DNA of 64,000 bases. It comes from Candidatus Kaiserbacteria bacterium (GTDB lineage: Bacteria; Patescibacteriota; Minisyncoccia; Phycocordibacterales; UBA2100). The position numbers were made by a program, and so were the translations under genes. The stretch is from NCBI GenBank assembly GCA_016217925.1, contig JACRFK010000003.1, positions 271,656 to 335,655 of the forward strand. Direction: 5' to 3'. Below the pieces are notes generated by a model. That model saw only the letters and a program-made list of their open reading frames with translations. It had not been told where the DNA came from and did not search any database. Positions 11,738 to 47,631 of this stretch are shown in pieces (the first letter of the stretch is position 1; each line of letters begins with the position of its first letter).

Positions 11738-11810
11738 CCTCCTCTTCTTCGAGGGTTACTCATGCACACAGAGTCTTACCACTCTCGAGCTTGCCTTACT
11801 CTTTTCCTCC

Positions 11811-11850
11811 GAAGGAGGACCCTCCTCTGGAGGGCAAAATAAGCCGCAGG
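11811..11850 (+). repeat. Family A mini-element, divergent intergenic copy between rpoD and dnaG
   Basis: ttttcctccgaaggaggaccctcctctggagggcaaaa. Confidence 0.55.
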
Positions 11851-11868: not shown

Positions 11869-13665
11869 CTACACGTTCTCGTGCAGTTGCGCAATGCGAG
11901 TTGTCAACAGTTTACACACACCCATGAGCCGAGTCACCTCCTCCTCGTCCTTCCCGTTTTCAGCCTTCTTTAGAGCCATGGTAGCGTCATCGAGCTCGGC
12001 GGCGAGAAGTTCTTTGAGGATAACTACGAGCAGGGCTTTGGTCTCGCGTTCAGGGTTCGTACTTTTGCCGTGCAGTTTTTCGGCGGAAAATCGGAGCGCC
12101 TCCCGCTCGCTTTCGGTGAGCGTGGAGAGGCTTGCAAAGGCCTCCGGCCCTATCGCCGTCTCAAGTTCGGTCGCATATGCCGCGACATCTATCGAGGGCT
12201 TCTCCAGTGATTGCTGCCACAGGAGTATGGAGAAAGCCTGGCGGGCGCGGCTCGACGCACGGGTGCTTCGCCACGATGTTTTTGGATCAACTTTCGGCAC
12301 GGAGGCCGGAGCGACCGCACTTGCCGGGCCCGGTGAGGTTGGAAGCTTCCCAAGCGCTTCGCCGACCGCTGATTCGGAGACTCCGAGCCTTCGCGCTATC
12401 TCGTGCACATGCTGTTCGCGCGCTATCGGACTTTGCACATCGGACAGAAACGGCAGCACTATCGTTTCTACCGCGCGCCGGAAGCGATCCTTCTGGGGCA
12501 GATGCTCTTCAAGCACTTCGAGGAGGAATAGGATGATGTCTTTTGAATCTCGTATCGCTTTTTTCCACGCATCCGCGCCTTCTTTTCCTCCTGAGGAGGA
12601 TCCGCCTCCGGCGGACTGAATTAAATCCGCAGGGTCGAGCCCCGTCGGCAGCCGCGCGACTTTTACGTTGAGCCCACCTTGGAGCGCGGTGCGCGCAGCG
12701 CGTCCCGCCGCCTTGATACCCGCCTCATCAGCATCGAGCGCGAGCACGAGGTTGTCCGTCATGCGGCGAATGAGGGCTGCATGCTCAGGCGTAAACGCCG
12801 TGCCCGAGACGGCGACGGTATTCGCCCACCCGGCCTGGTGCGAGGCCAGCAGGTCCATCTGACCTTCCACCAGAACCGCGCAATTGAGCTTCCGGATGGC
12901 GACTTTTGCCCTATCAAAGCCATATAATACGCGGGATTTGTGGAAAAGCGGCGTCTCGGGGCTGTTGAGGTACTTGGGCGCATCGGGCGAGGCTGCCTCG
13001 CCGAAGATGCGGCCGGAAAAGCCGACGACGCGGCCCGCGGAGTCGGCAATGGGAAAGATGATGCGGTAGCGGAAGTTGTCGGTGAGAGAGCCCCGTTCGT
13101 TCTTCTTGGCGACACCCGCTTCGAGCATCTCCCGCTCGGTATATTTTCCTCCGGAGGAGGATCCGCCTCCGGCGGATTTCATTTTCAAATAATCGGAAAG
13201 TTCGGACCAACTATCCCCCGCGAGACCGAGACGGAATGATTGTATGGTCGCATCGGTCATGCCGCGCCCTTTCAGGTACTTCTTCGCCGCATCGTTGAGG
13301 CGTGAGGTATAAAAAATCGTTGCAGTCTCCAAAAGCTCGAACAGTCGCTCGCGTTCGTCTTTCTTCTCTTTGCCGCCGCGTTCGTAGACCAACTCTACTC
13401 CCGCCTTTTCCGCGAGCACTTTGAGCGCACCTTTGAAGTCGAGGCCCTCGATAGCTTCGACAAAAGAAAAAATATCCCCGCCGACGTTGCAGCCGAAACA
13501 GTGATACGTGCCCCGCTCCGGCGACACATGGAAAGAGGGCGTTCGCTCCGCGTGAAAAGGACACCGCGCGCGCAAGGAAGCGCCCGCGCGCTGCAGCTTC
13601 ACGTATTGCGACACCACGTCGACGATCGAGAGCCTATCTTTGATTTGTTGTACCGTATCCGCCAT
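11869..13665 (-). CDS. dnaG: DNA primase DnaG with two in-frame mini-element insertions
   Basis: Zinc finger CPFHAERTPSFHVSPERGTYHCFGCNVGGD; TOPRIM EGQMDLL...ALDADEAG. Insertions SAGGGSSSGGKYTE and SAGGGSSSGGKEGA. Confidence 0.85.
   Translation of the reverse strand: MADTVQQIKDRLSIVDVVSQYVKLQRAGASLRARCPFHAERTPSFHVSPERGTYHCFGCNVGGDIFSFVEAIEGLDFKGALKVLAEKAGVELVYERGGKEKKDERERLFELLETATIFYTSRLNDAAKKYLKGRGMTDATIQSFRLGLAGDSWSELSDYLKMKSAGGGSSSGGKYTEREMLEAGVAKKNERGSLTDNFRYRIIFPIADSAGRVVGFSGRIFGEAASPDAPKYLNSPETPLFHKSRVLYGFDRAKVAIRKLNCAVLVEGQMDLLASHQAGWANTVAVSGTAFTPEHAALIRRMTDNLVLALDADEAGIKAAGRAARTALQGGLNVKVARLPTGLDPADLIQSAGGGSSSGGKEGADAWKKAIRDSKDIILFLLEVLEEHLPQKDRFRRAVETIVLPFLSDVQSPIAREQHVHEIARRLGVSESAVGEALGKLPTSPGPASAVAPASVPKVDPKTSWRSTRASSRARQAFSILLWQQSLEKPSIDVAAYATELETAIGPEAFASLSTLTESEREALRFSAEKLHGKSTNPERETKALLVVILKELLAAELDDATMALKKAENGKDEEEVTRLMGVCKLLTTRIAQLHENV
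12581..12620 (+). repeat. Family A mini-element copy in dnaG
   Basis: tcttttcctcctgaggaggatccgcctccggcggactgaa. Confidence 0.75.
13141..13180 (+). repeat. Family A mini-element copy in dnaG
   Basis: atattttcctccggaggaggatccgcctccggcggatttc, the consensus copy. Confidence 0.75.
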
Positions 13666-14048: not shown

Positions 14049-14106
14049 GGCTACCGCTCAACTGACTCCTTGCGGCTCTGGCTTTCAGGCACTTCTTCGG
14101 GTGCGG
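14049..14106 (-). repeat. Displaced duplicate of the rpoC 3' end (57 bp), candidate att-type direct repeat
   Basis: About 90% identical to 16391-16448. On the minus strand it encodes [17 protein letters not shown]-stop. All differences from the rpoC copy fall at third codon positions. Confidence 0.6.
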
Positions 14107-14114
14107 TTAGGTCT

Positions 14115-14150
14115 ATTGTTTATCTCGTCCGGCCGGATAAATTAAACAAT
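14115..14150 (+). repeat. 36-nt hairpin element ATTGTTTATCTCGTCCGGCCGGATAAATTAAACAAT (direct repeat 1)
   Basis: 8-bp stem ATTGTTTA/TAAACAAT around an inner TCCGGCCGGA palindrome. 7 nt from the stop of the 14158..14745 gene. Confidence 0.5.
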
Positions 14151-14157: not shown

Positions 14158-14745
14158 TCATTCGGGCAGGAGGCCAAATTCCTTTCGCAGAGGAGCATCG
14201 TACTCAATCGCATCTGCAATGATGTAAAGTAAGTCTTTACCGATGTGCAATTCCGCTTTGAGAAGAGCCACTGCCTCCTCGCAGTCGTACGGATACGCCC
14301 AAACACTGTCTTGTAGACGGACAAAGCCGAACCCTGCAACGATTCCCCGCGCCCGTGCACGAAGGACATGTTTCTTTTCAGGAATATCAAAGATGACCAA
14401 CCGCCATTTGCCATCCCATCGACTCGGCCTGGGCAACGGGCCGAAGGATACAAGAGATCCGAGTCTTTTCCTCCCCTTCTCAGTTATACGCAAGTAGACC
14501 CGGCCATGGTCACGCACGAATTCGACAAAACCTTTATTCTTGAGCCGGTAGGTCGCCTCGCGAACGCGTTGTTTAGGGTCACGCTTTGCGATCCAGTCGG
14601 GGTCAAGATGCTTGAGAAGCCGCAGTGCATTGGGCGCCGCCATCGCTACGAGACCGATGCCGGCAATCGCGAGTCCGGAGAGGATTGCCTGCTCAATCTG
14701 TCCGCGTCGTGTACCTTTCTTCGAGGTCCGCTCCATTCTTCCCAT
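14158..14745 (-). CDS. PaaX-like winged-helix regulator (PaaX_C/Cas2-like C-terminal motif)
   Basis: WDGKWRLVIFDIPEKKHVLRARARGIVAGFGFVRLQDSVWAYP matches the PaaX C-terminal signature. Precisely flanked by the 36-nt hairpin repeats. Confidence 0.5.
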   Translation of the reverse strand: MGRMERTSKKGTRRGQIEQAILSGLAIAGIGLVAMAAPNALRLLKHLDPDWIAKRDPKQRVREATYRLKNKGFVEFVRDHGRVYLRITEKGRKRLGSLVSFGPLPRPSRWDGKWRLVIFDIPEKKHVLRARARGIVAGFGFVRLQDSVWAYPYDCEEAVALLKAELHIGKDLLYIIADAIEYDAPLRKEFGLLPE

Positions 14746-14781
14746 ATTGTTTATCTTATCCGGTCGGATGCGTTAAACAAT
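14746..14781 (+). repeat. 36-nt hairpin element (direct repeat 2), abutting the start codon of the PaaX-like gene
   Basis: attgtttatcttatccggtcggatgcgttaaacaat. Confidence 0.5.
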
Positions 14782-16390: not shown

Positions 16391-16448
16391 GGCTACCGCT
16401 CGACAGACTCCTTGCGACTCTGGCTTTCGGGCACTTCCACGGGTGCCG
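16391..16448 (-). repeat. rpoC 3'-terminal 57 bp, partner of the 14049-14106 direct repeat
   Basis: Encodes the rpoC C-terminal [20 protein letters not shown]. Confidence 0.6.
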
Positions 16449-19400
16449 CAGCGGCGAACTCAGCTTCCATTTGTTCTATCATCGCGTGCTTCTTGCTTCC
16501 CTTGAATCCGGTACCGGCGGGAATAAGGCGGCCAATGATGACATTTTCCTTGAGACCCACGAGGCGGTCCACGGCGCCCGAAACGGCGGCCTCGGCGAGT
16601 TTGCGCGGAGTGTTCTGGAAGGAGATGGCCGAAAGGAAGGACGCACGTGTGAGGGATACTTCGGTAATACCGAGCAGGAGCTGTTTGCCTTTAGCCGGCT
16701 CGCCTTCCACTTCTTTCTGCACTTTGTTGATACGTTCGAATTCGAAGTCGGCGACGATTTCCCCTGCGGAGACCCCCGTGTCGCCGGAAGTCGTGACGGA
16801 TACGCGCGAGAACATCTGTTTGACGATAACCTCCAAATGCTTGCGGCCGGTGGATACTCCCTGGAGCTCGTAGATGCGCGTGATTTCGTTGATGATGTAT
16901 TGCTGTGCACGCTCCTTGCCCGCGAGCAGGAAAAGCTCTTCGAGGTCGGCGGAGCCGTCGGTGAGGAAGTCGCCCTTTTCTACCTTGGCGCCCTTCTTCA
17001 CCAAGATGGTGCGGAGCGGATGCACGCGGTATTCGGTCTCTTTCTTTTGGGCTTTTGCGGTCTTGGCAAGTGAAGCGACATCCGGGACGATGGTGATGAC
17101 CGTCTCAGCTCCGTCCTTCTCGATATCGGCAATGATGCCCGTAACGCGCGAGATGGTGGCGGGGAGCTTGGGTGCGCGCGTCTCGAAGACTTCCTCGACG
17201 CGCGGCAGACCCATGGTGATGTCTCCGCCTGCGGTGGCGACGCCTCCCGTGTGGAAGGTACGCATCGTGAGCTGAGTTCCCGGCTCGCCGATGGCTTGCG
17301 CGGCGATGACGCCTATTGCTTCACCCACGTCCACAATCTCGCCGGTCGTGAGGTCCATGCCGTAGCACTTCTGGCAGACGCCGCGTGCGACTTTGCATGT
17401 CATAGGCGAGCGCACAGTAACTTCTGTCGCCTTGCTTTCTTCGACAGCTTTAGCATCGTCGCGATTCAAGAGGTGGTTGCGCTTTCCGCCGAAGGCGGAT
17501 CCGCCTCTGGCGGAGAAGCCCTCAATATCTGCGGCAAGTACGCGGCCGTTCACGCGGTCGGCAAAAGAGCCGCCGATGTTCTCTTTGCCGGGACGATTGA
17601 TGACGACCCCCTCTTTGGTGCCGCAGTCATTTTCGAGAACGACGACGTCGTGCGCGACGTCGAAGAGACGGCGTGTGAGATACCCGGCGCGTGCCGTGTT
17701 GAGCGCGGTGTCGGCAAGACCTTTGCGCGCACCGTGCGTCGAGATGAAGTATTCGATTGGGGTGAGACCTTCTTTCAAGCTAGAGGTGATGGGGAATTCG
17801 ATGATCTCTCCGCGCGGGTTGGTGATGAGGCCTTTCATACCCACCATTTGGTGAAGCTGGACGACGGAACCGCGGGCACCGGAAGTGATCATGTCGTGCA
17901 CGGGACCGGTGCGGTCGAGCGCGTCAACAACGTGCTTGCGCAATTCGCCGGAGACCTTGCCCCAGATCTCAACCGTCATGCGGCGGCGTTCGTCTTCAGT
18001 GAGAAGCCCTTGATTAAAGTTCTCGAGCTCTTTCGCCGCTTGTTCACGTCCCGTTTTTACCATCTCCTCCTTCACGCTTGGAATGACGATGTCCGAGATT
18101 GCCCAGGTGATACCGGCGTAGGTCGCATAGCGGAAGCCGAATGCTTTTATTTTGTCCAAAATGGCGGGGATGCCGTCGAGACTGTAATGCGTAACGAGAT
18201 TTTGCACCAAGGCGCCCATGCGCTTGTTGGTTATTTCTTCGTTCAAGTACGGGAAGTCGTTGGGAAGGACGGAGTTGAAGAGGAGGCGACCGACGGTCGT
18301 CTCGAAAACTTTGCCTTCGTATTGCCCGTATTTCTTATTTTCGGTCGGGAGCACCTTTATCTTGGCGCGCAAGTCCACCGCGCCAAAATCGTGCGCGGTA
18401 ATAGCGGCGTTAGTCGAAGGAAATGCGCTTCCCTCACCTTTCAGACCATCAACGGACTTCGTCATCCAGTAGCATCCCAAGACGATGTCGAGGAGCTTGG
18501 ATGCGACAACGACGTCGCCGCTTCCTGGCTTCAAGATGTTCTTATTGGCGGACATCATCATGCGCGCCTCCATCTGAGCGGCTTCGGAGAGCGGCACGTG
18601 GACGGCCATCGCGTCGCCGTCGAAGTCAGCGTTGTAGGCCGGACAGACGAGCGGGTGTACCTGGATTGCGTTGCCTTCGATTAAGACCGGGCGGAACGCC
18701 TGGATGGACTGGCGGTGCAGCGTCGGCGCGCGGTTCAAGAGTACGTACTTGTCTTTAATCGCTTCTTCGAGAATCGGCCACACTTCAGGAGCTTCGTCTT
18801 CGATAAGACGGCCCGCGCCGCGGATGTTGTAGGCGAGTTCGCGCGCAAGCAAGCCCTGAATGACGAATGGACGGAAAAGTTCGAGCACCATGTGCTTCGG
18901 AAGACCGCATTCGTCGAGTGCCAAGTCCGGACCGACGACGATGACGGAACGGCCCGAGTAGTCCACGCGTTTACCGAGCAGGTTCTGACGGAGATAGCCG
19001 TGCTTACCTTTGAGGTAATCGGCGAGCGATTTCAGCGCGCGGCGGCGGCCTCCGAGGATGCCCAAGACACCTGCGCCGCGGCGCATGGAATTGTCGAGGA
19101 GCGCGTCCACAGCTTCCTGCAGAATGCGCTTTTCGTTGCGGAGGATGACTTCCGGCGCGTGGATGGCGAGCAATCGCTTGAGGCGATTGTTACGGTTGAT
19201 GACGCGGCGGTAGAGGTCGTTGAGGTCCGACGATGCGTGACGGCCGCCTTCGAGGGCGACCATGGGGCGCAGCGCCGGCGGCACGACTGGAAGACGCGTC
19301 ATGAACATCCACTCCGGGCGCACACCCGCGCGCTGCAAGCTCTCGGCGAGGCCGAGGCGTTTGCGGAGTTTGTCGCGGTCCGCGGCACCCGAGTTTTCGT

Positions 19401-23200: not shown

Positions 23201-23378
23201 ATTTCTTGCCGGAGTGGTCGGAGATGGGGGAAAATTCCTTGAACACACGCTCGGCGCCTCCCGCGACGAAGTCGTGGAACGACTTTATCTGTGCCTCGAC
23301 GAGGCTCGGAAATTTCACCAGCGGCTCCTGAAATTTCCCGAAGTACTTCTGCGGTCGCACGAGCTTAGATTTTGCCAT
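20205..23378 (-). CDS. rpoB: DNA-directed RNA polymerase beta subunit
   Basis: Conserved RpoB blocks, e.g. GDKLAGRHGNKGVISRILP and NMQKQAVPL. Confidence 0.95.
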   Translation of the reverse strand: MAKSKLVRPQKYFGKFQEPLVKFPSLVEAQIKSFHDFVAGGAERVFKEFSPISDHSGKKFELKLVKFSFGELRWDEQYAKRAMKTYESPLSMVVRLKNKTTGEEKEQEIFLADFPWMTPHGTFVINGVERIVVPQLARSYGVFFESIPYKGKNYFAAKIIPARGVWIEIESDADGGIYVKVDRKRRFPVTSLLRVLGLGSEKEILAQFEKSPLARDAIAATLGHDHAHTPEEAFVEIYRRLRDGDIATPESARDHVASILSPDRYDFSRVGRFHFNRRFGLGTSEKDLAHATLSLADVVRIITHISELNADPAAVSDDIDHLGFRRVRFAGELLEGRMRVGLSRMKRNIQDRMAMVDAETTNPVSFVNPRPFQAAIREFFTTDQLSQLMQQYNTLDEIEHLRTLSTLGRGGLTSERAGLEVRDVHSSHYGRVCPIHTPEGKNIGLVLHMSLYARPNEFGIIETPYAKVEKGVVTKEIKYLNALEEEQYAIAHAGIPRDGSGHLTPKMVEVRREGNPTLVKREQVEFMEVATNQPFSVATSLIPFVENDDANRALMGSNMQKQAVPLVVPEAPVVATGVEAAAARDSGRLVIAEEAGEVTYADASMIKVKNSEGKTKEHPLVNFSRTNGFTTFHQRPLVSVGDSVKKGTVLADTSTSVGGQLAIGQNVRVAFLPWFGANFEDAIVISEKLAKEARFTSIHMEEFICVVRDTKLGAEVTTHDIPNVSEFKLRNLDEDGVIRIGAEVRSGDILVGKVTPKGETQLTPEERLLHAIFGEKAKDVKDTSLRMEGGKRGRVIGVKVFSRETGDQLESGVIKRVHIEVAQLRTISVGDKLAGRHGNKGVISRILPEEDMPFDEQGNPVDIILTPLGVPSRMNLGQILELHLGLAADMLGYQAVVPSFAGATEEEIRGELAKAGVSETGKRVLFDGRTGEAFAQPVSVGVMYMLKLHHMVEDKIHMRSIGPYSLTTQQPLGGKAQNGGQRVGEMEVWAFLGYGAAYSLREILTIKSDDILGRSAAFDAIVSGKRIEESNTPATFNVLVRHLRGLGIDIEFKGGSM

Positions 23379-23582
23379 GTTGCAACAAGATAACCTGGCG
23401 ACGCTTTCGCGTCGTAGGTAAAAATCTTTATTAGCTTTATAAAAAGGCTTCCCCGAACCAAACCCTTTTACTAAAAGCGCAACCGCAACTCAATCAGCTA
23501 GTAGCAAATGTCCGCGGAGTGTACCACATGACGGTCAACCCTCAACCTTGACAGACGCCATCGAGTATTGTATATCCCTAAT

Positions 23583-23605
23583 CTCCGAGGGTTTAACCTC
23601 CCAAG
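23583..23605 (+). repeat. REP-like hairpin (degenerate) CTCCGAGGGTTTAACCTCCCAAG
   Basis: Shares the GGTTTAACCTCC core with the RAYT-flanking REPs. Confidence 0.45.
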
Positions 23606-23625
23606 TAGAATAATGATGTGCGCCT

Positions 23626-24030
23626 TCAAAGCGCGAGCCACACAGCAAGAAGTAGGAAAATTAGAGCGATGCCGACCATTAGTCCCGTTCCGATGTTCGT
23701 ACTCGACTCGATTATTTTCGAAGATCTCCACCAACTTGATTTGAAGAAATATACAGATAAGAGTCCATAGAGTAGTGCTCCTCCGATGACAACATATAGT
23801 CTAGTTACCGCCGAATCGTACTGTATTTGGTAGTATAAGGTAAACAAAAGTGCTGCGAATCCGACCACAGATAGCAATATCCATTGCGTGTTACTGTATA
23901 CAATGGGCGTCACTTTCTGCCCAGACGCTTTCGGCACAAGCCACTTGCCCAGCCTCCTTTGGTAATATGCAACTAATAAGAGAAGCAGCGCCATCGGCAC
24001 CAAAATTCCAGGTAGATCCCAGTCCCACAT
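23626..24030 (-). CDS. Hypothetical membrane protein
   Basis: Four predicted TM helices. Lies in the lower-GC REPtron neighbourhood. Confidence 0.4.
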   Translation of the reverse strand: MWDWDLPGILVPMALLLLLVAYYQRRLGKWLVPKASGQKVTPIVYSNTQWILLSVVGFAALLFTLYYQIQYDSAVTRLYVVIGGALLYGLLSVYFFKSSWWRSSKIIESSTNIGTGLMVGIALIFLLLAVWLAL

Positions 24031-24113
24031 GCGTGGATTCTACAGGACAAACTCATTTTACGGGAGGCGTCACGAGTAAAGTGGGGATATTGTACTAAGT
24101 ACTCATTAAGTCT

Positions 24114-24851
24114 CGTTAATATTGGGAGGTTAAACCTCCGGAGATTCGTGGTAATCTTTCAGGATGGCAACACGTGCACCATGCGTGACGGAAGAATGGT
24201 ACCACTGTTACAACAGAGGCGTTGATAAACGGAAGGTTTTCGAGTCAAAAGCTGACTACGAACGCTTTATGGGGCTTTTATATGTTTCAAATGGAGATAG
24301 GACTGAGGCAATCTCGGACAGATATCGGAGAGATTTCCCCTCCCTCCTTGCAGAGGACCCGAAGGATCGGGGTGAGCCTCTCGTGGATATTGCCGCTTTT
24401 TCGCTGATGCCGACCCATGTGCACTTCGTGCTGCAACAACTTCAAGACGGAGGGATAGCACGATTCATGCAGAAAATATTTACCGCCTACACGATGCACT
24501 TCAATGCGAGGCGCGAGCGGACAGGAGCCTTGTTCGCGGGTACGTACAAAACGAAACATATCGACGATGACCGGTACCTCAAGAAAGTGATTCCGTACGT
24601 TATTTTGAACCCTGCGGAGTTGTTTGAACCGAAATGGAAACAAGGAAAATGCGATATCGGAAAGATGCGCACACAATTATTGGAATATCCGTACTCAAGT
24701 GTGAAAGAGTTCTTCAACAAAGATGCAACGGCCCAGAAAATTACCGGCGCAGGTATACGGGAATACTTTGACCGAATGCCCAATCTGACGGAAATGCTTG
24801 AAGACGCCCGCGACTACTACCGCGAGTATTCTCCGGAGGTTTAACCTCCGG
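24114..24851 (+). mobile_element. REPtron: REP hairpin + RAYT/IS200-like Y1 transposase gene + REP hairpin
   Basis: GGGAGGTTAAACCTCCGGAG at 24114-24133. Perfect 10-bp-stem hairpin CTCCGGAGGTTTAACCTCCGGAG at 24829-24851, which supplies the TAA stops of both convergent genes (RAYT and trmD). Confidence 0.65.
24164..24844 (+). CDS. REP-associated tyrosine transposase / IS200-like HuH Y1 transposase
   Basis: HuH motif LMPTHVHFVLQQ; catalytic Tyr block TGALFAGTYKTKHI; N-terminal WYHCYNRGVDKRKVF; C-terminal YVILNP. No TnpB partner. Confidence 0.75.
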   Translation: MATRAPCVTEEWYHCYNRGVDKRKVFESKADYERFMGLLYVSNGDRTEAISDRYRRDFPSLLAEDPKDRGEPLVDIAAFSLMPTHVHFVLQQLQDGGIARFMQKIFTAYTMHFNARRERTGALFAGTYKTKHIDDDRYLKKVIPYVILNPAELFEPKWKQGKCDIGKMRTQLLEYPYSSVKEFFNKDATAQKITGAGIREYFDRMPNLTEMLEDARDYYREYSPEV

Positions 24852-25548
24852 AGTTTTTGCGCCCTTTCTTCCACTTCTCTATTTCAGCGTGATTACCCGA
24901 GAGTAGGACCTTGGGAACGCGGTGTTTTCTTCCCTTCCATTCAAGCACTTCGGGGCGCGTATAGACTTCCGGGCTGGATACGCGACTCGCTTCCAGAGAT
25001 TCGGCTTTGCCCAAGACTCCTGGGACGTGCCGGGAAATGGCGTCTATCAGTGTTGTTGCAGGAAGCTCGCCGCCCGTAAGCACGTACGGGCCGACTGAGA
25101 CCTTCTTGGCCTTTCCTCCGAAGGAGGATCCGCCTCCGGCGGACAATACTTTAAAGACCCGCGCATCCACACCCTCATAGTGTCCGCAGATAAATAGAAC
25201 GTCTTTTTTCTTCGAAAGTTTCTTCGCCATCGCTTCATCGAATAATGCGCCGTCAGTCGCGAAGAATATCTTCTCCACTCCCTTCTTATTCCCTATCGCT
25301 TTCTTTACCGCGTTCAACATCGGCTCGGGCCGCAAAACCATACCTGGCCCTCCCCCGTACGGCCGACGATCCACGCGCATATCTTGCGTGCGGGAACTCT
25401 TGCCAATGAATCTTTTGGGGTCGTAGTAGGAAATCTTTATTTTCTTCGCGGCGATAGCACGACCAATGATAGAAGCCTTGAGATACGGCTCGATTGATTC
25501 CGGAAACAAAGTGATGATGTGAAAGTGAATCATAGTCCGCATTTCCAA
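24841..25548 (-). CDS. trmD: tRNA (guanine37-N1)-methyltransferase with in-frame mini-element
   Basis: SPOUT/TrmD motifs (IIGRAI..., ICGHYEGVD, GPYVLTGGELPA). Insertion SAGGGSSFGGKAKK at 25111-25148. C-terminal NSGG-stop is encoded by the REP hairpin. Confidence 0.85.
   Translation of the reverse strand: MEMRTMIHFHIITLFPESIEPYLKASIIGRAIAAKKIKISYYDPKRFIGKSSRTQDMRVDRRPYGGGPGMVLRPEPMLNAVKKAIGNKKGVEKIFFATDGALFDEAMAKKLSKKKDVLFICGHYEGVDARVFKVLSAGGGSSFGGKAKKVSVGPYVLTGGELPATTLIDAISRHVPGVLGKAESLEASRVSSPEVYTRPEVLEWKGRKHRVPKVLLSGNHAEIEKWKKGRKNSGG
25111..25148 (+). repeat. Family A mini-element copy in trmD
   Basis: ctttcctccgaaggaggatccgcctccggcggacaatac. Confidence 0.75.
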
Positions 25549-33378: not shown

Positions 33379-33457
33379 ACCGCGGAAACGAAATGCGAAA
33401 GGGCGGCCTGCGGACCGCCCTTTTCGATGCAAAAAATGAGAGTGATATACTGCCCCT

Positions 33458-36400
33458 ATGAGTGCGCGCGAATTCGTCCATTTGCATACTCACTCGCACT
33501 ATTCGCTCCTCGAAGCACTGCCCAAAATCCCCGAGCTTGTCGCTGCGGCTGCCAAAGATGGCCAGACAGCGCTTGCGCTCACCGACAACGGCAACCTCTA
33601 CGGCGCGATAGATTTCTACAAAGAGTGTAAGGACAATAGCGTGAAGCCGATTATCGGCGTCGATTTCTATGTCGCCCCGCGTACCCGCGCGCAAAAGGAG
33701 CATCGCATCGATGAACACACCTCGCGACTCGTGCTTTTGGCGAAGAACGAAACGGGGTATCGCAACCTGATGCAGCTTGTCTCGCGCTCGCACCTCGAAG
33801 GCTTTTATTACCGCCCGCGCATAGACCGCGAACTCATCGAAGCGCACCGCGAAGGACTCGTCGCGATACTTCCCTCTTTTGGCGGCGAACACGCCAAGCA
33901 CCTTCGCGAACACAATGCCGGGAAAGCGCGGGAGTGCGTGGATTGGCACAAAAAAATATATGGCGATGACTTGTTCCTGGAAATAACCCGTCACCCGGAG
34001 ATAGACGGACACGAGGGTCAGATGCAGGAGATTATTTCGCTCGCGCGCGGGGCCGGTGTCCCGCTTGTGGCAGCGCACGACACGTACTATCTGAAGAAGG
34101 AAGACGCGCTCGCGCGCGAGCTGGTGCGCAAAATCCGGAGCGCCGGCGTACTGAATCGCGACTTTGAGCAGGGCGCCCCCGATTTCTCATTCATGCCGCG
34201 CGCGCAGATGGAAGAGTCTTTCAAGGATATTCCGGAGGCACTTGAAAATAGCGCGCGCATTGCCGAGAGATGCGAGCTGGAGCTGAAGCTAGGGCTCTGG
34301 GTCTTCCCCGATTTTCCCATTCCCGCCGGAAGTAGCGCAAATGACGAGTTGCGAGCGCTCGCGCAGGCAGGATTCAAGGAGCGCGGCGTCGCCGAGACCT
34401 CCGAGAACAAAGAGCGCGTTGGCTATGAGCTTTCCATAATCGGAAGCAAGGGGTACTCGCCGTATTTTCTCGTCGTTGCGGACCTCTTGCGCCACGCACG
34501 CGAGAAGGGAATTCTCACCAATACTAGAGGCAGCGCGGCGGGCTCTCTCGTCTCGTACCTCTCCGGCATCACGACGGTAAACCCCATCGAATATCAACTC
34601 CCCTTCGAGCGATTTTTGAATCCCGAGCGACCGAGCCCGCCCGATATCGACATGGACCTCGCCGACAACCGCCGCGACGAGCTCATCGCGTATGTGAGGG
34701 AAAAATACGGGGAAGAAAAAGTGGCGCAGATAGGCACTTTCGGCACCATGATGGCGCGCGCGGCCGTGCGCGACGTTTCGCGCGCGCTCGGACATCCCTA
34801 CAGCCTCGGCGACACGATTGCCAAGCTCATTCCATTCGGCAAGCAGGGATTCCCCGTGACTATTGCGGGAGCTTTGGAGGAAGTGCCCGAGCTCGCGCAG
34901 CTGTATAAGAAAGACGCGGATGCGCGCGAAGTTCTCGATCTCGCGCAAAAAGTCGAAGGCAATGCGCGCCACGTCGGCGTCCACGCCGCGGGAGTCGTTA
35001 TTGCGCCGACCGCCGTCACCGACTACTCGCCTATTCAAATAGACCCCAAGGGCAATCACATCATCACGCAGTACGACATGTACGCGATTGAAGAAGCGGG
35101 GCTTCTGAAATTCGATTTCCTCGGACTTACCAACCTCTCGGTCCTTGCCGACGCGGTCGCGCGCGTGCGCGAGCGCTTGCACGTAGACATTGATCTCGAC
35201 AAGCTCCCGCTCGATGACACAAAGACTTTCGAAATGCTCTCACGCGGCGAGACGCTCGGAGTATTTCAACTCGCAGGCGGCGGCATGACGGCCTACCTCG
35301 TCGACCTAAAGCCGACCGCCATCCACGACATCAACGCGATGGTCGCGCTCTACCGCCCGGGCCCGATGGCTTTCATCCCCGCATACATCGAACGCAAAAA
35401 AGATCCGAAGCTCGTGAAATACCTCGACCCGCGTATGGAGATTATTCTCAAGAATTCCTACGGCGTCATTACCTATCAGGACGACGTGCTGGAGATTGCT
35501 ATCAAGATAGCCGGATACTCGTGGCTCGAGGCCGATAAATTCAGGAAAGCGATGGGGAAGAAGATACCGGCGGAAATGAAAGCGCAGAAAGAAAAGTTCA
35601 CCAAAGGCTGTGTGGCGGGCGGCATGAAGAAAGAGGCCGTACAGCAGTTGTGGGAACAGATAGAAACATTTGCCGCATACGGCTTCAACAAAGCGCACGC
35701 CGCTTCTTACGGCAACTTGGCGTATAAAACGGCTTACATGAAGGCTAATTTCCCTGTCGACTATATGGCGGCGGTGCTCACTGCGGACGCCGGCGACGTC
35801 GAAAAGATTTCGGAGGTCGTCGCCGAGTGCAAACGCATGGGTATCAATGTATTGCCGCCGTCGGTCAGTGAGAGTTACGGCAATTTTACCGTCGTAGATG
35901 AAAAAAATATTCGCTTTGGTCTGTATTCGATAAAGAACTTCGGCACGGGTGTCGGAGATTCCATCATCGCCGCAAGGAAAGAAGGAGGACCATTTAAGGA
36001 CATCGCCGATTTTCTCTCCCGCATCCTGGACCCCGTTAGAGGCGACGCCTCTAACGGGGCGGGCAAGAATCTCAACAAAAAATCCCTGGAATCTCTCATC
36101 CAGTGCGGCGCGTTTGACGACATGAGGCTCTCCCGCGGCGAGCTCATGGAGAACATCGAGACTCTTCTCACCTTCCACCGCGAGCATCTTAGTTCACCGA
36201 AAGACCAAAGCTCACTCTTCGGTACGATGAGCGCCCCGCGTCTGTCGCTCTCACTGCAACGCGCAAAGCCCGTCGCGCTCGAGACGCTCTTGGGATGGGA
36301 AAAAGAATTGCTCGGCCTCTATATTTCCGGACATCCGCTCGACAAACACAAAGCGAAATTCGCCGATACAAAAAAGAGCATCAAATACGCAAAAGAACAT

Positions 36401-36652
36401 CTGAAGGGCGTGGAGACCGTCATCGCGGGGTTTGTCGAGAGCGCCCGCATCAACCAGACGAAGAACGGAGAAAAGATGGGGTTCCTCAAGCTCGCTGATT
36501 TTTCTGACTCCATCGAGGCCGTAGTCTTCCCACGGACCTTCAAAGAATGCGAATCTATCATCACCCCCGGCTCCTGTGTCGCGTTCAAAGGCAAAATCTC
36601 GGACAGGAACGGGGAATCTAGTTTTGTTGTAGAGCGTGCTAAAGCACTGTGA
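33458..36652 (+). CDS. dnaE: DNA polymerase III alpha subunit carrying an in-frame perfect hairpin
   Basis: PHP domain HLHTHSHYSLLEA, polymerase core, OB-fold. Hairpin-encoded DPVRGDASNGAG at 36031-36059. Confidence 0.9.
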   Translation: MSAREFVHLHTHSHYSLLEALPKIPELVAAAAKDGQTALALTDNGNLYGAIDFYKECKDNSVKPIIGVDFYVAPRTRAQKEHRIDEHTSRLVLLAKNETGYRNLMQLVSRSHLEGFYYRPRIDRELIEAHREGLVAILPSFGGEHAKHLREHNAGKARECVDWHKKIYGDDLFLEITRHPEIDGHEGQMQEIISLARGAGVPLVAAHDTYYLKKEDALARELVRKIRSAGVLNRDFEQGAPDFSFMPRAQMEESFKDIPEALENSARIAERCELELKLGLWVFPDFPIPAGSSANDELRALAQAGFKERGVAETSENKERVGYELSIIGSKGYSPYFLVVADLLRHAREKGILTNTRGSAAGSLVSYLSGITTVNPIEYQLPFERFLNPERPSPPDIDMDLADNRRDELIAYVREKYGEEKVAQIGTFGTMMARAAVRDVSRALGHPYSLGDTIAKLIPFGKQGFPVTIAGALEEVPELAQLYKKDADAREVLDLAQKVEGNARHVGVHAAGVVIAPTAVTDYSPIQIDPKGNHIITQYDMYAIEEAGLLKFDFLGLTNLSVLADAVARVRERLHVDIDLDKLPLDDTKTFEMLSRGETLGVFQLAGGGMTAYLVDLKPTAIHDINAMVALYRPGPMAFIPAYIERKKDPKLVKYLDPRMEIILKNSYGVITYQDDVLEIAIKIAGYSWLEADKFRKAMGKKIPAEMKAQKEKFTKGCVAGGMKKEAVQQLWEQIETFAAYGFNKAHAASYGNLAYKTAYMKANFPVDYMAAVLTADAGDVEKISEVVAECKRMGINVLPPSVSESYGNFTVVDEKNIRFGLYSIKNFGTGVGDSIIAARKEGGPFKDIADFLSRILDPVRGDASNGAGKNLNKKSLESLIQCGAFDDMRLSRGELMENIETLLTFHREHLSSPKDQSSLFGTMSAPRLSLSLQRAKPVALETLLGWEKELLGLYISGHPLDKHKAKFADTKKSIKYAKEHLKGVETVIAGFVESARINQTKNGEKMGFLKLADFSDSIEAVVFPRTFKECESIITPGSCVAFKGKISDRNGESSFVVERAKAL
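36031..36059. repeat. Perfect hairpin CCCCGTTAGAGGC-GAC-GCCTCTAACGGGG (family B) inside dnaE
   Basis: 13-bp stem, 3-nt loop. Same arms as the 61637/61742 pair. Confidence 0.7.
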
Positions 36653-41151: not shown

Positions 41152-41709
41152 TTATTTTGCGAATGAGATGGCGCGGCCTACCTCGACGGCATGGCCGACT
41201 TCTACCGCGTGCCCGACGTTGACGGCATGGCCGACGCTCTTAGCGCGCCCCACGGATACCGCGTGACCAACGGATACGGCGTGGCCGACATTTACCGCAT
41301 GCCCTACCGAGACCGCATGGCCGGTGGGAACGAGCGCAAAGAGTTTACCGGGTCCAAAGAGGTCTACGGCGTGTGCGATGTCTACGATGTGCCCGACTTC
41401 TACGGGATGCGCGACGTTAACGGGGTGCGCGACGTTAACTCCATAACCGACGCCGATGGGATAACCGACATTCACACCATGACCAACGTTTACCCCATGC
41501 CCTACATTCACACCATAGCCGACACCTATGGGATAGCCGGTAGACGCACCGTATCCGGGCGACGTGGGATATCCAGCATCCGTCGGGTATCCCAAGGGAA
41601 CCGCCACGCCATACGTTTCTATTTCAGGCGGATCGGTGATGGCGGCGTATGAAAGCGGCGCCAAGCCGACGCAAATAATTATGGCGAGTGTTACAAGCCC
41701 TTTTTTCAT
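41152..41709 (-). CDS. Secreted histidine-rich hexapeptide-repeat protein
   Basis: Signal peptide, then (V/A)GHAVN-type repeats ~20 times (VGHAVNVGHAVSVGHAV...), i.e. 18-nt DNA tandem repeats. Confidence 0.55.
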   Translation of the reverse strand: MKKGLVTLAIIICVGLAPLSYAAITDPPEIETYGVAVPLGYPTDAGYPTSPGYGASTGYPIGVGYGVNVGHGVNVGHGVNVGYPIGVGYGVNVAHPVNVAHPVEVGHIVDIAHAVDLFGPGKLFALVPTGHAVSVGHAVNVGHAVSVGHAVSVGRAKSVGHAVNVGHAVEVGHAVEVGRAISFAK

Positions 41710-45831: not shown

Positions 45832-47631
45832 TTATCGCACCTCCCACCCCTTACCTTTCACCGCAGCGTACACTTTTTCCATCACCACATTCACTTCCGT
45901 ATCGGTAAGTGTCTTTTCGAAAGACTGAAATACGAGACGGAATGCGAGCGATAACTTGCCGCCCTTTTTAAACTCATCGAATTTCTCGCTTCGCGTCAAT
46001 AACTCCCCTGCTTCCGCACGAATGACCGAGAGAACATCTTTAGGTTTGGTTTCTGCAGGAACCCACATCGCGATATCGCGGACGATGAACGGATATTTCG
46101 AGAACGGCTGGTAGCGTTCGGTGGTCGAAAGAGGCAAGTCGTCGTAGGCGGAAGCGGCGGCGGCTTCAAGCGGTTCTTCCGAGACCGTACCTCCCTCCTC
46201 TACCGTACCGACCATCGTCATTTCTTTTTTATTATTCCACACACTGCCAATCTCGAACAACTTTACTTTGTAAAGTTGTAGCAGGTCTTTGTTGCGGATA
46301 TTTTTCTCAAGCGCACTTCCTAGACCATCGGTCAGATTGGCGCGAAGGTACGGGCGCACGCCATCTACTTTGTTGGCGACAAGACGTTCGCCCTTGTCCG
46401 CAAAGACCGACGTAAAGACCTCTGAGTATCCTTTCGAAGTGAGTTCGGCGCGTGCACGCTCACTCGCGTAGAAATTGGCGTTCACCTCGGGCTTTTGGGG
46501 AAATGCGGAAAGTTCCGTGGCCGGTATTTTGTCGTATCCTACGATGCGCGCTACTTCTTCTATCAAATCTTCGGGAATTACGAGGTCGAGCCGTTCAAAT
46601 GGCGGAGTGACGGTAAACATACAATGAGATGACATCTCATTGTATTGGTATGGCAGGTCGAGGCGCTTGAATGCATCCGCGACATCCGATTCCGCAAGCT
46701 TCGTACCGAGCACAGTGTTGATTTTCTTGAGCGAAACGGAAACCGTCCATTTTTTCTGCGGAGCCGGGTATTCGTCGACATACCCCGCGACTTCCCCGCC
46801 CGCAAGCTTCACAATCAGGTCGGCAGCCGCTTTCAGGCCGTACACGGTAAGCTCGGGCGAGATGACTTGCTGGAAGCGGTCTGAGGCGTCGGTGCGTAAT
46901 TTCAGGGCTTGCGATGTCTTTCGGATAGTGACACCGTCCCAGTTCGCGGCTTCGAGCACGATAGCAGTGGTAACTTCATCTATGCCGGTCGGCTTCCCTC
47001 CTTTGATGCCAGCGATACTTACAGCCTCACCCGTATTGCCGTCGGCAATGACAAGCATTGAGGACGCGAGCGCGTACTCCTTGTCATCAAGCCCAAGCAT
47101 CTTTTCCTCATTTTTTGCCATGCGCACATCAAGTGCACGTACCCCCTCTTTCTCGGTGAGCTTTGCCGCATCGAACGCGTGCAGCGGCTGGCCGATGTTG
47201 AACATCACATAATTTGTCGCATCCACGATGTTGTTGATACTTTTCTGACCGATACTTTCGAGCGCGGTGCGCAGCCACTCGGGCGAGTCCCCGACTTTGA
47301 CTCCCGTAATGTATGCGGCGGTAAAACGCGGGCAAAGCTGCGGATTCTCTATCATGACTTTCAACGAGTCGGTTTTTGGCTCAAGGGAGACATCAGTAAT
47401 GCCATACGGATGCGGTACAAGTGGAAGGTTCAAAATCGCCGACAACTCTTTTGCTATCCCCCGGTATGAGAGGCAATCATGTCCGCGATTCGGCGTAACC
47501 TTCACGTCGAGAACTTCGCCCTCGACGATTTCTATCTCGAATGCATGAAATGTAAGCGCATCAGCCAGCTCCTGCGCTGCCGGTAGAGGTTTCTCAAAAT
47601 ATGCCTGAAGCCATTCGCGGGAGATTTTCAT
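45832..47631 (-). CDS. pheT: Phenylalanyl-tRNA synthetase beta subunit (short form)
   Basis: B3/B4 and B5 domains, C-terminal anticodon-binding-like domain. Operon with pheS. Confidence 0.85.
   Translation of the reverse strand: MKISREWLQAYFEKPLPAAQELADALTFHAFEIEIVEGEVLDVKVTPNRGHDCLSYRGIAKELSAILNLPLVPHPYGITDVSLEPKTDSLKVMIENPQLCPRFTAAYITGVKVGDSPEWLRTALESIGQKSINNIVDATNYVMFNIGQPLHAFDAAKLTEKEGVRALDVRMAKNEEKMLGLDDKEYALASSMLVIADGNTGEAVSIAGIKGGKPTGIDEVTTAIVLEAANWDGVTIRKTSQALKLRTDASDRFQQVISPELTVYGLKAAADLIVKLAGGEVAGYVDEYPAPQKKWTVSVSLKKINTVLGTKLAESDVADAFKRLDLPYQYNEMSSHCMFTVTPPFERLDLVIPEDLIEEVARIVGYDKIPATELSAFPQKPEVNANFYASERARAELTSKGYSEVFTSVFADKGERLVANKVDGVRPYLRANLTDGLGSALEKNIRNKDLLQLYKVKLFEIGSVWNNKKEMTMVGTVEEGGTVSEEPLEAAAASAYDDLPLSTTERYQPFSKYPFIVRDIAMWVPAETKPKDVLSVIRAEAGELLTRSEKFDEFKKGGKLSLAFRLVFQSFEKTLTDTEVNVVMEKVYAAVKGKGWEVR

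What the first reader, a model, noticed from the sequence alone, without database searches (positions are those of the whole stretch)
24114..24851. REPtron: IS200-like/RAYT tyrosine transposase flanked by REP hairpins that end both convergent genes and share their core with the in-frame mini-element
ORF 24164..24844 has HuH (HVHFVL) and catalytic-Tyr blocks of Y1 transposases of the REP-associated (RAYT) type, and has no TnpB. It is flanked by GGGAGGTTAAACCTCCGGAG (24114-24133) and by the perfect hairpin CTCCGGAGGTTTAACCTCCGGAG (24829-24851). A degenerate third copy lies at 23583-23605.

The 3' hairpin overlaps the last codons of both the transposase (SPEV-stop) and the convergent trmD (NSGG-stop). 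Its TTTAA loop gives a TAA stop on each strand.

The hairpin core CCTCCGGAGG is the same word that forms the first half of the dispersed 33-nt mini-element. I infer, but cannot show, that this Y1 transposase mobilises or generated the in-frame repeats. The neighbourhood 23.4-24.9 kb is AT-richer than the flanks.
Basis: partly seen in the sequence, partly recalled or inferred. Interest (0 to 1): 0.7.

Follow-up and report, generated by a model that had tools for sequence, protein, structure and literature searches.

The report
RAYT-like gene with matched flanking hairpins
A conserved DNA-cutting enzyme gene of the RAYT/IS200 kind sits between two copies of its own DNA hairpin in a tiny-genome (Patescibacteria) bacterium. 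It is a new lineage-specific variant of a known arrangement, and it has no demonstrable link to the separate 30-base in-frame repeat nearby.

Summary
ORF 24164-24844 encodes a HuH/Y1 enzyme: Pfam Y1_Tnp is just above its cut-off, and the best fold match is E. coli RAYT (4ER8). It has the class-2 signature (PTHVH, YVILNP) and dN/dS of about 0.05.

It is flanked by GGAGG-TTWAA-CCTCC hairpins. True coordinates are 24124-24143 (eroded) and 24831-24853 (perfect). A degenerate third copy lies at 23583-23605. The TTTAA loop supplies the TAA stop of both the Y1 gene and trmD.

Across about 80 Patescibacteria loci, homologues carry matched hairpin pairs whose stems co-vary. The upstream hairpin abuts an extended -10 box 6-7 nt before the ATG, which suggests a leaderless mRNA. 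Genomes hold 2-4 diverged paralogues, each with its own hairpin. Filled and empty sites occur within one conserved gene cluster.

Orphan copies of this hairpin occur in metagenome contigs, often in frame inside genes. Other hairpin types sit inside dnaE and a pheT-like ORF in the window.

So this is a REPtron-like unit, but it lacks the GTAG foot and shows no high-copy REPs.

The proposed link to the mini-element fails. That element is a 30-nt insertion that does not track this Y1 or its hairpin, and its stem polarity is opposite.

The parts
24164..24844 (+). Y1 (HuH) tyrosine endonuclease/transposase-like gene, 226 aa, class 2 (RAYT-like). HuH is at H85/H87, the catalytic Tyr at Y145 (YVILNP), and the 'YPYSS' tail motif follows.
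   Evidence: ORF. Pfam Y1_Tnp above cut-off. NCBIfam REP_Tyr_transpos 32 bits, below the 80-bit cut-off. Invariant residues. AF2 model pLDDT 87.7. Best fold match is 4ER8 RAYT, E 5.9e-5. dN/dS 0.04-0.055 against syntenic orthologues.
24124..24143 (.). Left (upstream) hairpin copy GGGAGG-TTAAA-CCTCCGGAG. Its 5' arm is eroded in this genome. The core is at 24125-24139, and the loop is inverted relative to the right copy.
   Evidence: Orthologous copies are intact in L011 (AATCTCCGGAGG-TTAAA-CCTCCGGAGATT) and L009.
24149..24157 (+). Extended -10-like box TGGTAATCT. It ends 6 nt before the ATG and no Shine-Dalgarno motif is present. This is an inferred promoter of a leaderless Y1 mRNA, with the left hairpin occupying the -35 region.
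   Evidence: Sequence. The same layout occurs in 74 of 78 homologous loci: 51 with 6-7 nt spacing, 43 with TG, and only 5 with an SD-like motif.
24831..24853 (.). Right (downstream) perfect hairpin CTCCGGAGG-TTTAA-CCTCCGGAG, followed by TTTTT. It encodes the last codons and the stop of both the Y1 gene and convergent trmD. It is terminator-like on the + strand.
   Evidence: Terminator scan. DNA fold -11.7 kcal/mol, z -5.96. The sequence is identical in L010 (L009 and L011 each differ slightly) although window-versus-orthologue dS is about 1-2.
23583..23605 (.). Third, degenerate hairpin copy CTCCGAGGG-TTTAA-CCTCCCAAG. It marks the outer left edge of the DNA that is extra relative to genomes with an empty rpoB-trmD site.
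   Evidence: no stable fold.
23626..24030 (-). 134-aa predicted membrane ORF between the third and the left hairpin. This slot holds different, unrelated genes in the orthologous loci, so it may be passenger DNA.
   Evidence: No Pfam or NCBIfam family. Unrelated ORFs of 297-407 aa occupy the slot in L001/L010 and L011.
24841..25548 (-). trmD. Its last five codons (KNSGG) and its stop come from the right hairpin. It also carries one 30-nt mini-element at 25112-25141.
   Evidence: In L001 the trmD reading frame runs through the hairpin, so the shared stop is not conserved. Mini-element insertion.
36032..36064 (+). Orphan Y1-type hairpin inside dnaE. It is a clean 33-nt (11-aa, PVRGDASNGAG) in-frame insertion containing CCCCGTTAGAGGC-GAC-GCCTCTAACGGGG (36031-36059). 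This hairpin type flanks a Y1 paralogue in another genome (L075).
   Evidence: absent from 7 DnaE homologues; DNA-level boundaries. Fold -16.1 kcal/mol, z -5.4.
46619..46645 (.). Orphan Y1-type hairpin ATACAATGAGAT-GAC-ATCTCATTGTAT inside a pheT-like ORF (45832-47634, minus strand). The arms match the hairpin type of L074.
   Evidence: +4 aa against homologues, boundaries unclear. Fold z -5.2.

Best explanation
This is a REPtron-like unit of a Patescibacteria-specific clade of class-2 Y1 (HuH) enzymes, the RAYT/TnpA-REP kind.

Shown:
- The gene encodes an intact, strongly constrained Y1 enzyme.
- Two copies of one palindrome bracket it.
- In relatives the two copies change together while remaining hairpins.
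- The upstream copy sits where a -35 element would be, directly before an extended -10 box and a leaderless ATG.
- The downstream copy carries the stop codon and looks like an intrinsic terminator.
- Each paralogue has its own hairpin type.
- Units occupy different intergenic sites of one conserved gene cluster in genomes of similar relatedness. Within a lineage they are inherited vertically.
- Solitary copies of the same hairpins occur elsewhere, often in frame inside housekeeping genes.

Inferred:
- The enzyme binds its cognate hairpin on single-stranded or extruded DNA. It cuts and rejoins next to it, as E. coli RAYT and IS608 TnpA do.
- This activity keeps the two flanking copies alike, occasionally moves the hairpin-bounded unit, and seeds short solitary hairpins.
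- Those hairpins survive in a gene-dense genome mainly where they are in frame.
- Binding at the upstream hairpin would also repress the enzyme's own promoter.
- In this particular genome the left hairpin is eroded, so the unit itself is probably immobile now.
For: Protein identity:
- Pfam Y1_Tnp is above its cut-off.
- The fold is closest to 4ER8 RAYT, then IS608/ISDra2 TnpA.
- HuH and YxxxNP are invariant.
- Class-2 motifs follow the scheme of PMC6006769.
- dN/dS is 0.04-0.055, with window-versus-orthologue dS of about 1-2.

Hairpins as cognate DNA elements:
- Matched pairs occur at both gene ends in 58 of about 79 loci.
- Stem positions 6-9 are 83-95% Watson-Crick against 27-39% in shuffles, with all four pair types.
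- 5' arms of the two copies at one locus are 8.4/10 identical, against 5.1/10 between loci.
- Density of strong hairpins is 4.7/kb at gene ends against 0.33/kb elsewhere.
- At stem position 9, the one position where both classes are listed, CA (7) is as frequent as TG (6). There is therefore no strand-specific G-U signal, and the upstream copy lies ahead of the inferred transcription start.

Promoter layout. Terminator.

Paralogues with their own hairpins.

Filled and empty sites: window, L009, L010 and L011 have the unit between rpoB and trmD. L048, L052 and L053 have an empty rpoB-trmD site and a 44-50%-identical Y1 between SMC and fam4 instead. RpoB is about 93% identical throughout.

Orphans:
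- The scan found 72 exact sites of CCGGAGGTTWAACCTCCGG on 69 metagenome contigs. Only 3 are next to a Y1 gene, and 32 lie inside ORFs of at least 150 aa, including DsbD-like and GluRS genes.
- A clean 33-nt hairpin insertion lies in the window's dnaE.
Against: - No biochemical evidence exists. Cleavage sites are unknown, and no conserved foot motif was found.
- Inside the 64-kb window this hairpin type occurs only at this locus. Orphan copies in long metagenome contigs are rare, at 1-2 per 100-600 kb, so there is no REP-like abundance.
- I could not show that orphan copies and a cognate Y1 gene share a genome.
- The left and third copies in the window are eroded, so selection on them is not strict here.
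- The two loops are in direct orientation in 26 loci and inverted in 25. This fits neither the IS200 rule (direct) nor the REPtron rule (inverted). It may simply reflect frequent loop flipping.
- NCBIfam's RAYT model is far below its cut-off.
- Several intragenic hairpins show no length difference from homologues, so not all are demonstrable insertions.
Confidence: 0.6

Rival explanations
1. It is an autonomous IS200-type insertion sequence. The hairpins are its left and right ends, and the whole roughly 730-bp unit (24124-24853) transposes by single-strand 'peel and paste'.
For: - Unit size and layout (one Y1 gene plus subterminal hairpins) resemble IS200.
- Units lie at different sites of a conserved gene cluster, with reciprocal empty sites.
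- GC is lower than in the flanks.
- Fold matches to IS608/ISDra2/IS200 TnpA reach E of about 1e-3.
Against: - The Y motif is YxxxNP (class 2), not YxxxQ.
- The protein is 226 aa, not about 150.
- Paralogues within a genome are only about 40-50% identical to the query, and no near-identical copies were seen.
- Orthologues stay syntenic across window-versus-orthologue dS of about 1-2, with dN/dS of 0.05.
- All 13 pairs at 80% identity or more are syntenic.
- No tnpB is present, and no relatives were found on viral contigs.
- The left end is eroded here.
Confidence: 0.15
2. The hairpins are only expression signals of a domesticated gene. The upstream palindrome is an operator or insulator and the downstream one is a bidirectional terminator. 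The protein does not move DNA any more.
For: - The upstream hairpin has a fixed position at the -35 region of a leaderless promoter.
- The downstream hairpin followed by a T-run scores as a terminator.
- Inheritance is vertical and purifying selection is housekeeping-like.
Against: - An operator and a terminator have no reason to share one sequence, nor to change together between species.
- The catalytic HuH and Tyr are invariant.
- The same hairpins occur as solitary in-frame insertions in unrelated genes. Extra tandem copies sit next to many loci.
Confidence: 0.15
3. One reading: this Y1 enzyme generates or mobilises the dispersed in-frame mini-element (TCCKCC-NNN-GGMGGA x2), because both share CCTCCGGAGG.
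For: - Both are GGAGG/CCTCC-rich palindromes with 3-nt loops.
- The element is a true, polymorphic, precise 30-nt insertion, so something moves it.
- The window holds 8 copies and one Y1 gene.
- Y1-type hairpins do end up in frame inside genes.
Against: - L009, L010 and L011 carry the same Y1 and hairpin, yet lack the element at all three insertion sites that can be compared (trmD, rpoC, dnaG). Their copy counts are 0, 0 and 1.
- L048 has the identical trmD insertion with a different Y1 and hairpin.
- The element consensus is constant in genomes whose Y1 hairpins differ.
- The exact 10-mer is absent from the hairpins, and only 1 of 8 copies shares a 9-mer.
- The polarity of the arms is opposite, so the two hairpins are different structures on either strand.
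Confidence: 0.07

Closest known systems
REPtrons: RAYT / TnpA-REP genes flanked by their own REPs (E. coli YafM, PDB 4ER8; class 2 of the TnpA-Y1 classification, PMC6006769; Bertels et al., PMC5581495)
   Same: - HuH plus YxxxNP catalytic core. 4ER8 is the best fold match.
- The gene is bracketed by cognate palindromes, often with extra copies alongside.
- Genomes hold a few diverged paralogues, each with its own repeat type.
- Inheritance is mostly vertical under purifying selection.
- Solitary repeat copies can lie in frame inside genes (reported for REPs in PMC3733652).
   Different: - There is no GT[AG]G/CGTC foot.
- Stems are long and mostly perfect, with a 3-nt loop rather than bulged REPs.
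- No high-copy dispersed family was seen. Copies cluster at the gene, and orphans are rare.
- Loops of the two flanking copies are direct or inverted about equally often.
- The protein is 226 aa with a helical C-terminal extension and scores far below NCBIfam's RAYT cut-off.
- The host is Patescibacteria.
Subclass 2.1 TnpA-Y1 / TIRYT 'TIRtrons' (Di Nocera et al. 2013, PMC3733652; Quentin et al. 2018)
   Same: - The length class is similar (median 238 aa).
- Motifs agree: NH[VYF]H-type HuH, Y[IV]xLNP, an 'SS' tail motif and GxLFxGxFKS.
- Subclass 2.1 has about 2 copies per genome at about 49% identity.
- Flanking repeats in some TIRtrons are self-complementary.
   Different: - No Bac_DnaA_C or HTH domain was detected.
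- The TIR consensus GGGGWSAS is not enriched: 4 of 79 loci, about what chance gives.
- Subclass 2.1 was reported to have no REP-like hairpins, whereas here nearly every gene has a matched pair.
- Subclass assignment rests on motif inspection only. The published HMMs were not available.
IS200 (IS200/IS605 family, class 1 TnpA)
   Same: - It is a single Y1 gene in a roughly 0.7-kb unit with hairpins near both ends.
- The upstream hairpin could shield the gene from outside transcription, as in IS200 (my own knowledge).
- The enzyme fold is related.
   Different: - The Tyr motif is YxxxNP, not YxxxQ.
- The protein is 226 aa, not about 150.
- There are no near-identical multiple copies.
- Orthologues stay syntenic for a long time.
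Rickettsia palindromic elements and intragenic REPs (in-frame palindromic insertions in protein genes)
   Same: Short palindromes are inserted in frame into housekeeping genes, including replication genes. In the window this is the 33-nt insertion in dnaE.
   Different: The insertions here are much shorter (27-33 nt, one hairpin). Their sequence type matches hairpins that flank Y1 genes.

Membership tests
HuH Y1 transposase superfamily (TnpA-Y1) | HuH metal-binding motif and a single catalytic tyrosine on a C-terminal helix | tested here: met
   PTHVHF (H85, H87) and Y145 are invariant in 41 homologues.
HuH Y1 transposase superfamily (TnpA-Y1) | Match to the family profile above the curated threshold, and the family fold | tested here: met
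   Pfam PF01797 scores 24.5 bits against a cut-off of 23, which is marginal. For the AF2 model (pLDDT 87.7), the top 7 PDB fold matches and most of the top 40 are Y1 transposases (the rest are mainly Thg1 tRNA-His guanylyltransferases); the best is 4ER8, E 5.9e-5.
Class 2 TnpA-Y1 (RAYT / TnpA-REP) | Tyr motif Y---NP (class 1 has Y---Q) | tested here: met
   YVILNP; Y145 and N149 are invariant. The criterion comes from PMC6006769.
Class 2 TnpA-Y1 (RAYT / TnpA-REP) | Score above the NCBIfam REP_Tyr_transpos (NF047646) equivalog cut-off | tested here: not met
   32.3 bits against a cut-off of 80.
REPtron | Gene flanked on both sides by copies of its own palindromic repeat | tested here: met
   In the window. 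In 58 of about 79 related loci, with covariation.
REPtron | The same repeat is dispersed in many copies through the host genome | tested here: inconclusive
   There are no further copies in the 64-kb window. Cognate copies in related loci lie within 3 kb of the gene. Yet 69 of 72 exact sites in metagenome contigs are not next to a Y1 gene. Density is low, and co-residence with a cognate gene is untested.
REPtron | Canonical REP anatomy: GT[AG]G (or CGTC) tetranucleotide at the foot of an imperfect hairpin | tested here: not met
   GT[AG]G occurs near 5 of 121 hairpin feet and its complement near 7, with about 6.6 expected by chance. Stems are perfect.
REPtron | Low copy number, diverged paralogues, vertical inheritance | tested here: met
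   There are 2-4 paralogues per genome, each only 40-55% identical to the query. All 13 pairs at 80% identity or more are syntenic. dN/dS is about 0.05.
IS200/IS605 insertion sequences | Class 1 TnpA (about 150 aa, Y---Q) in several near-identical copies, often with tnpB | tested here: not met
   226 aa with YxxxNP. No near-identical copies among 139 relatives. No tnpB neighbour.
TIRYT / subclass 2.1 | Subclass motifs: NH[VYF]H, Y[IV]xLNP, SS tail motif, about 238 aa | tested here: inconclusive
   Consensus PNHxH, YVLLNP and YPYSS at 226 aa fit by eye. The subclass HMMs were not available.
TIRYT / subclass 2.1 | C-terminal HTH / Bac_DnaA_C domain, and flanking TIRs with GGGGWSAS | tested here: not met
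   No such Pfam hit. The motif occurs in 4 of 79 loci, as expected by chance.
Any Y1 enzyme | Hairpin-specific single-strand DNA cleavage and joining | not testable with these tools
   Needs purified protein and oligonucleotide substrates.

The most novel reading that the evidence does not exclude
In Patescibacteria, a radiation of RAYT-like Y1 enzymes each maintains a private population of perfect hairpins. Because these genomes have almost no intergenic space, the hairpins live mainly as in-frame 27-33-nt insertions inside essential genes such as dnaE, alaS, gltX and pheT. The enzymes would then be writers, and possibly erasers, of short peptide insertions in core proteins. The 30-nt SAGGG-SSFGG element could be the substrate of a paralogue or another enzyme that lies outside this window.
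Probability: 0.25. Interest if true: 0.7.

Novelty: new variant of a known kind. Interest (0 to 1): 0.5.

Why it matters
RAYT/REP systems have been studied almost only in Proteobacteria and Cyanobacteria. There, the REPs are abundant and the link between enzyme and repeat is hard to separate from the other roles of REPs.

This case offers a simpler form. There is one enzyme gene, two matched perfect hairpins, a readable promoter and terminator layout, and many natural variants in which protein and hairpin have changed together. That gives dozens of ready-made cognate pairs for testing how a Y1 enzyme reads a hairpin.

It also extends REPtron-like units to the ultra-small genomes of Patescibacteria. 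It suggests that short palindromic insertions in their core proteins have a mobile-DNA origin.

For annotation, it warns that the C-terminal residues of the Y1 protein, and of neighbours such as TrmD, are dictated by a DNA hairpin.

Tried and rejected
- Rfam scan of 23300-25100 at E up to 1 found nothing, so no known RNA family explains the hairpins.
- A PDB sequence-profile search gave only a weak hit to ISDra2 TnpA (E 0.08). A fold search was needed.
- I considered an RNA-level structure. I rejected it for the upstream copy, which lies ahead of the inferred transcription start. At stem position 9, the one position where both classes are listed, CA mismatches are as common as TG, so there is no strand bias.
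- I considered IS200 membership and rejected it on motif, length and copy pattern.
- I considered TIRYT membership, but the HTH domain and the TIR consensus are absent.
- I looked for a GTAG-type foot or any conserved 4-mer next to the hairpins and found none.
- I looked for this Y1 family on viral contigs and found none.
- I looked for a remnant hairpin at the window's empty SMC-fam4 site. There is none, only an unrelated GC-rich terminator-like hairpin.
- The co-variation test between the mini-element and the Y1 hairpin was negative.
- Several intragenic family-type hairpins show no indel against homologues (SMC in L031 and L046; also L062, L068, L076, L065). I do not count them as insertions.
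- Literature searches for a description of RAYT-like units or in-frame palindromes in CPR/Parcubacteria found nothing relevant.
Full report
**1. What is in the sequence**

ORF 24164-24844 (+) encodes 226 aa. It scores just above Pfam's cut-off for Y1_Tnp (24.5 bits against 23). It scores far below NCBIfam's RAYT equivalog cut-off (32 bits against 80).

In an alignment of 41 full-length homologues, H85 and H87 (PTHVH), Y145 and N149 (YVILNP) are invariant. An N-terminal EWYHCxxRG block is almost completely conserved as well.

An AlphaFold model built on that alignment is confident (pLDDT 87.7, pTM 0.87). Its best PDB match is E. coli RAYT bound to a REP hairpin (4ER8, E 5.9e-5). IS608, ISDra2 and IS200 transposases follow.

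The neighbours are a 134-aa membrane ORF and trmD. There is no tnpB.

**2. The hairpins in the window**

- *Right hairpin.* CTCCGGAGG-TTTAA-CCTCCGGAG lies at 24831-24853. It is perfect, is followed by TTTTT, folds strongly as DNA (-11.7 kcal/mol, z -6), and scores as an intrinsic terminator.
- *Shared stops.* Its loop holds the TAA of the Y1 gene (24842-24844). On the other strand it holds the TAA of trmD (24841-24843).
Its 5' arm is eroded, leaving a 6-bp stem (z -2.1).
- *Third copy.* It lies at 23583-23605 and no longer folds. It is genuine, because the syntenic copy in L009 is intact.
- *Uniqueness.* No other TTWAA-loop hairpin with at least 5 bp of stem exists in the 64 kb.
- *Composition.* The 23.4-24.9 kb stretch is about 10 GC points below its flanks.

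**3. Relatives**

The protein has 664 database relatives. The named ones are Kaiserbacteria, Parcubacteria or Patescibacteria, and some are annotated RayT or transposase. A scan of one genome per species found 139 relatives, all in Patescibacteria. Several genomes carry 2-4 copies that are each only 40-55% identical to the query. None was found on viral contigs.

Almost every copy has the same anatomy. There is a hairpin upstream, a gene, and a hairpin of the same sequence overlapping or just after the stop. In 22 of 60 loci the stop codon lies inside the hairpin.

The arms differ widely between loci, for example CTCCGGAGG, CCGCAGG, CGATGAGG, TGCAGTGAGG and GTCAAGGC. They still pair and still match between the two ends:

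- Stem positions 6-9 are 83-95% Watson-Crick against 27-39% in shuffles, with all four pair types.
- 5' arms of the two copies at one locus are 8.4/10 identical, against 5.1/10 between loci.
- Strong hairpins are 14 times denser at the gene ends than elsewhere in 1.35 Mb of related DNA.
- A conserved core AGG[T/C]-NNN-[A/G]CCT remains.
- There is no GT[AG]G foot and no TIRYT-type GGGGWSAS motif.
- The two loops are in direct orientation in 26 loci and inverted in 25. I read this as frequent loop flipping, so orientation carries little information.

**4. Expression layout**

In 74 of 78 loci a -10-like hexamer lies just upstream of the ATG. In 51 of them it ends 6-7 nt before the ATG. Forty-three have the TG extension, and only 5 have an SD-like motif.

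In the window this is TGGTAATCT at 24149-24157. That fits a leaderless mRNA whose promoter has the upstream hairpin in place of a -35 element.

The upstream hairpin is therefore a DNA element, not part of the transcript. At stem position 9, the one position where both classes are listed, CA mismatches (7) are as common as TG (6). This also argues against a strand-specific RNA fold.

**5. Mobility and inheritance**

The four orthologues at 85-91% identity (window, L009, L010/L001, L011) are syntenic. Their dN/dS is 0.04-0.055, and dS between the window and its orthologues is about 1-2. The gene has therefore been kept in place, under constraint, for a long time.

The gene order rpoB-trmD-KH-S16-SMC-fam4...dnaE is conserved in a set of genomes whose RpoB is about 93% identical to the window's. 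Within that set:

- The window group has the unit between rpoB and trmD, and nothing between SMC and fam4.
- L048, L052, L053 and others have a 44-50%-identical Y1 unit between SMC and fam4, and an empty rpoB-trmD site of 145-196 nt.

Relative to the empty site, the extra DNA in the window runs from about 23550 to 24853. It is bounded by the third hairpin and the right hairpin. It includes a slot (23626-24030) that holds unrelated genes in L010 and L011.

Units thus come and go at different intergenic sites, usually abutting the 3' end of a convergent gene. Within a lineage they behave like resident genes. This matches what is described for RAYTs and for subclass 2.1 (PMC5581495; PMC6006769).

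**6. Are the hairpins dispersed?**

They are not dispersed within the window. In the related loci, exact cognate copies away from the gene are few and lie within 3 kb of it.

A scan of metagenome contigs for CCGGAGGTTWAACCTCCGG gave a different picture. It found 72 sites on 69 contigs, whereas my rough estimate of the chance expectation is only a few. Most sites extend to the full CTCCGGAGG stem. Only 3 lie next to a Y1 gene, and 32 lie inside ORFs of at least 150 aa. Two of these were verified as real genes: a DsbD-like thioredoxin protein, hit in an interdomain linker, and GluRS.

The window itself carries orphan hairpins of other types:

- A clean 33-nt in-frame insertion lies in dnaE (36032-36064). 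It is absent from seven homologues. Its core equals the hairpin flanking the Y1 gene of L075.
- A second orphan lies in a pheT-like ORF at 46619-46645.

In-frame REPs in replication and repair genes have been reported before (PMC3733652).

**7. The mini-element**

The element is an exact 30-nt insertion, made of two 15-nt palindromes TCCKCC-NNN-GGMGGA. Each reads S-[AS]-x-G-G in either orientation. It is inserted cleanly in trmD, rpoC and dnaG.

- It is absent from those sites in L009, L010 and L011, which share this Y1 gene and hairpin.
- It is present, identical, in trmD of L048, which has a different Y1 and hairpin.
- Its consensus is unchanged in genomes with quite different Y1 hairpins.
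- The word CCTCCGGAGG is not present exactly in the hairpins, and only one element copy shares a 9-mer.
- The arm polarity is opposite.

Something does move the element, but nothing ties it to this gene.

**8. Verdict**

This is a REPtron-like unit built around a class-2, subclass-2.1-like Y1 enzyme in a Patescibacteria clade. Its non-canonical features are perfect hairpins with no foot motif, a leaderless promoter abutting the upstream hairpin, and only low-copy orphan hairpins, many of them intragenic.

The enzyme's identity and the co-evolving hairpin pair are shown. Hairpin-directed cutting, homogenisation of the two copies, seeding of orphans and autoregulation are inferred.

I found no published description of this arrangement in CPR bacteria in the searchable library.

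Noticed in passing
window 5528-5559, 11803-11834, 12584-12615, 13145-13176, 17483-17514, 25112-25143, 44302-44333, 56531-56562: Eight copies of a 30-nt in-frame mini-element, made of two tandem 15-nt palindromes TCCKCC-NNN-GGMGGA. It encodes S-A-G-G-G-S-S-x-G-G in either orientation. It is a precise insertion in trmD, rpoC and dnaG relative to about 80%-identical relatives, and an identical insertion sits at the same trmD site in the more distant L048. Either it reinserts site-specifically or it is lost precisely. The mobilising enzyme is unknown.
   Followed up: partly
window 36032-36064 (dnaE ORF 33446-36652): A clean 33-nt, 11-aa (PVRGDASNGAG) insertion consisting of a 13-bp perfect hairpin. 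It is absent from seven DnaE homologues. The hairpin type matches the one flanking a Y1 paralogue in an Adlerbacteria genome (L075).
   Followed up: yes
window 46619-46645 (ORF 45832-47634, minus strand, pheT-like): A 12-bp perfect hairpin of the GAGAT-GAC-ATCTC type lies inside the coding sequence. The protein is 4 aa longer than its homologues at that position, and the boundaries of the event are unclear.
   Followed up: partly
window 23545-24120; L010 8990-9990; L011 7900-9950; L031, L040, L042, L046 rpoB-trmD spacers: The spacer between the rpoB promoter and the end of trmD is a variable slot. It is empty (145-196 nt) in some genomes. In others it is filled with unrelated small ORFs (427-717 nt), or with unrelated ORFs plus the Y1 unit.
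   Followed up: partly
window 38836-38898, 39220-39527, 41170-41524: Dense short-period direct repeats with periods of 9, 39 and 18 nt. They presumably lie inside one or more repetitive protein-coding genes. They appeared in the repeat list only.
   Followed up: no
window 14049-14104 / 16391-16446, and 14114-14150 / 14745-14781: Two two-copy direct repeats (56 nt at 89% identity, 37 nt at 84%) near the rpoC/primase region. The 37-mer is itself palindromic (TATTGTTTA...TAAACAAT).
   Followed up: no
L141 1932-2306 (metagenome contig Ga0209211_10000465): One 387-aa ORF with no Pfam match carries three Y1-type hairpins of two different types within 375 nt. The gene appears to have been decorated repeatedly.
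   Followed up: no
L046, L065, L079, L082, L019 (second Y1 ORFs): A second, more distant Y1 family (28-42% identity) lies within a few kb of the first in several genomes. It has its own matched hairpins, for example TGACCGACTT-CGT-AAGTCGGTCA. The paired-hairpin layout is therefore general for Y1 genes in these bacteria.
   Followed up: partly
L031 7830-7850 and L046 6390-6414 (SMC linker): Different family-type perfect hairpins lie at the same position of the SMC linker in two genomes, with no length difference from homologues. This could be replacement of one hairpin by another at an old insertion site.
   Followed up: no
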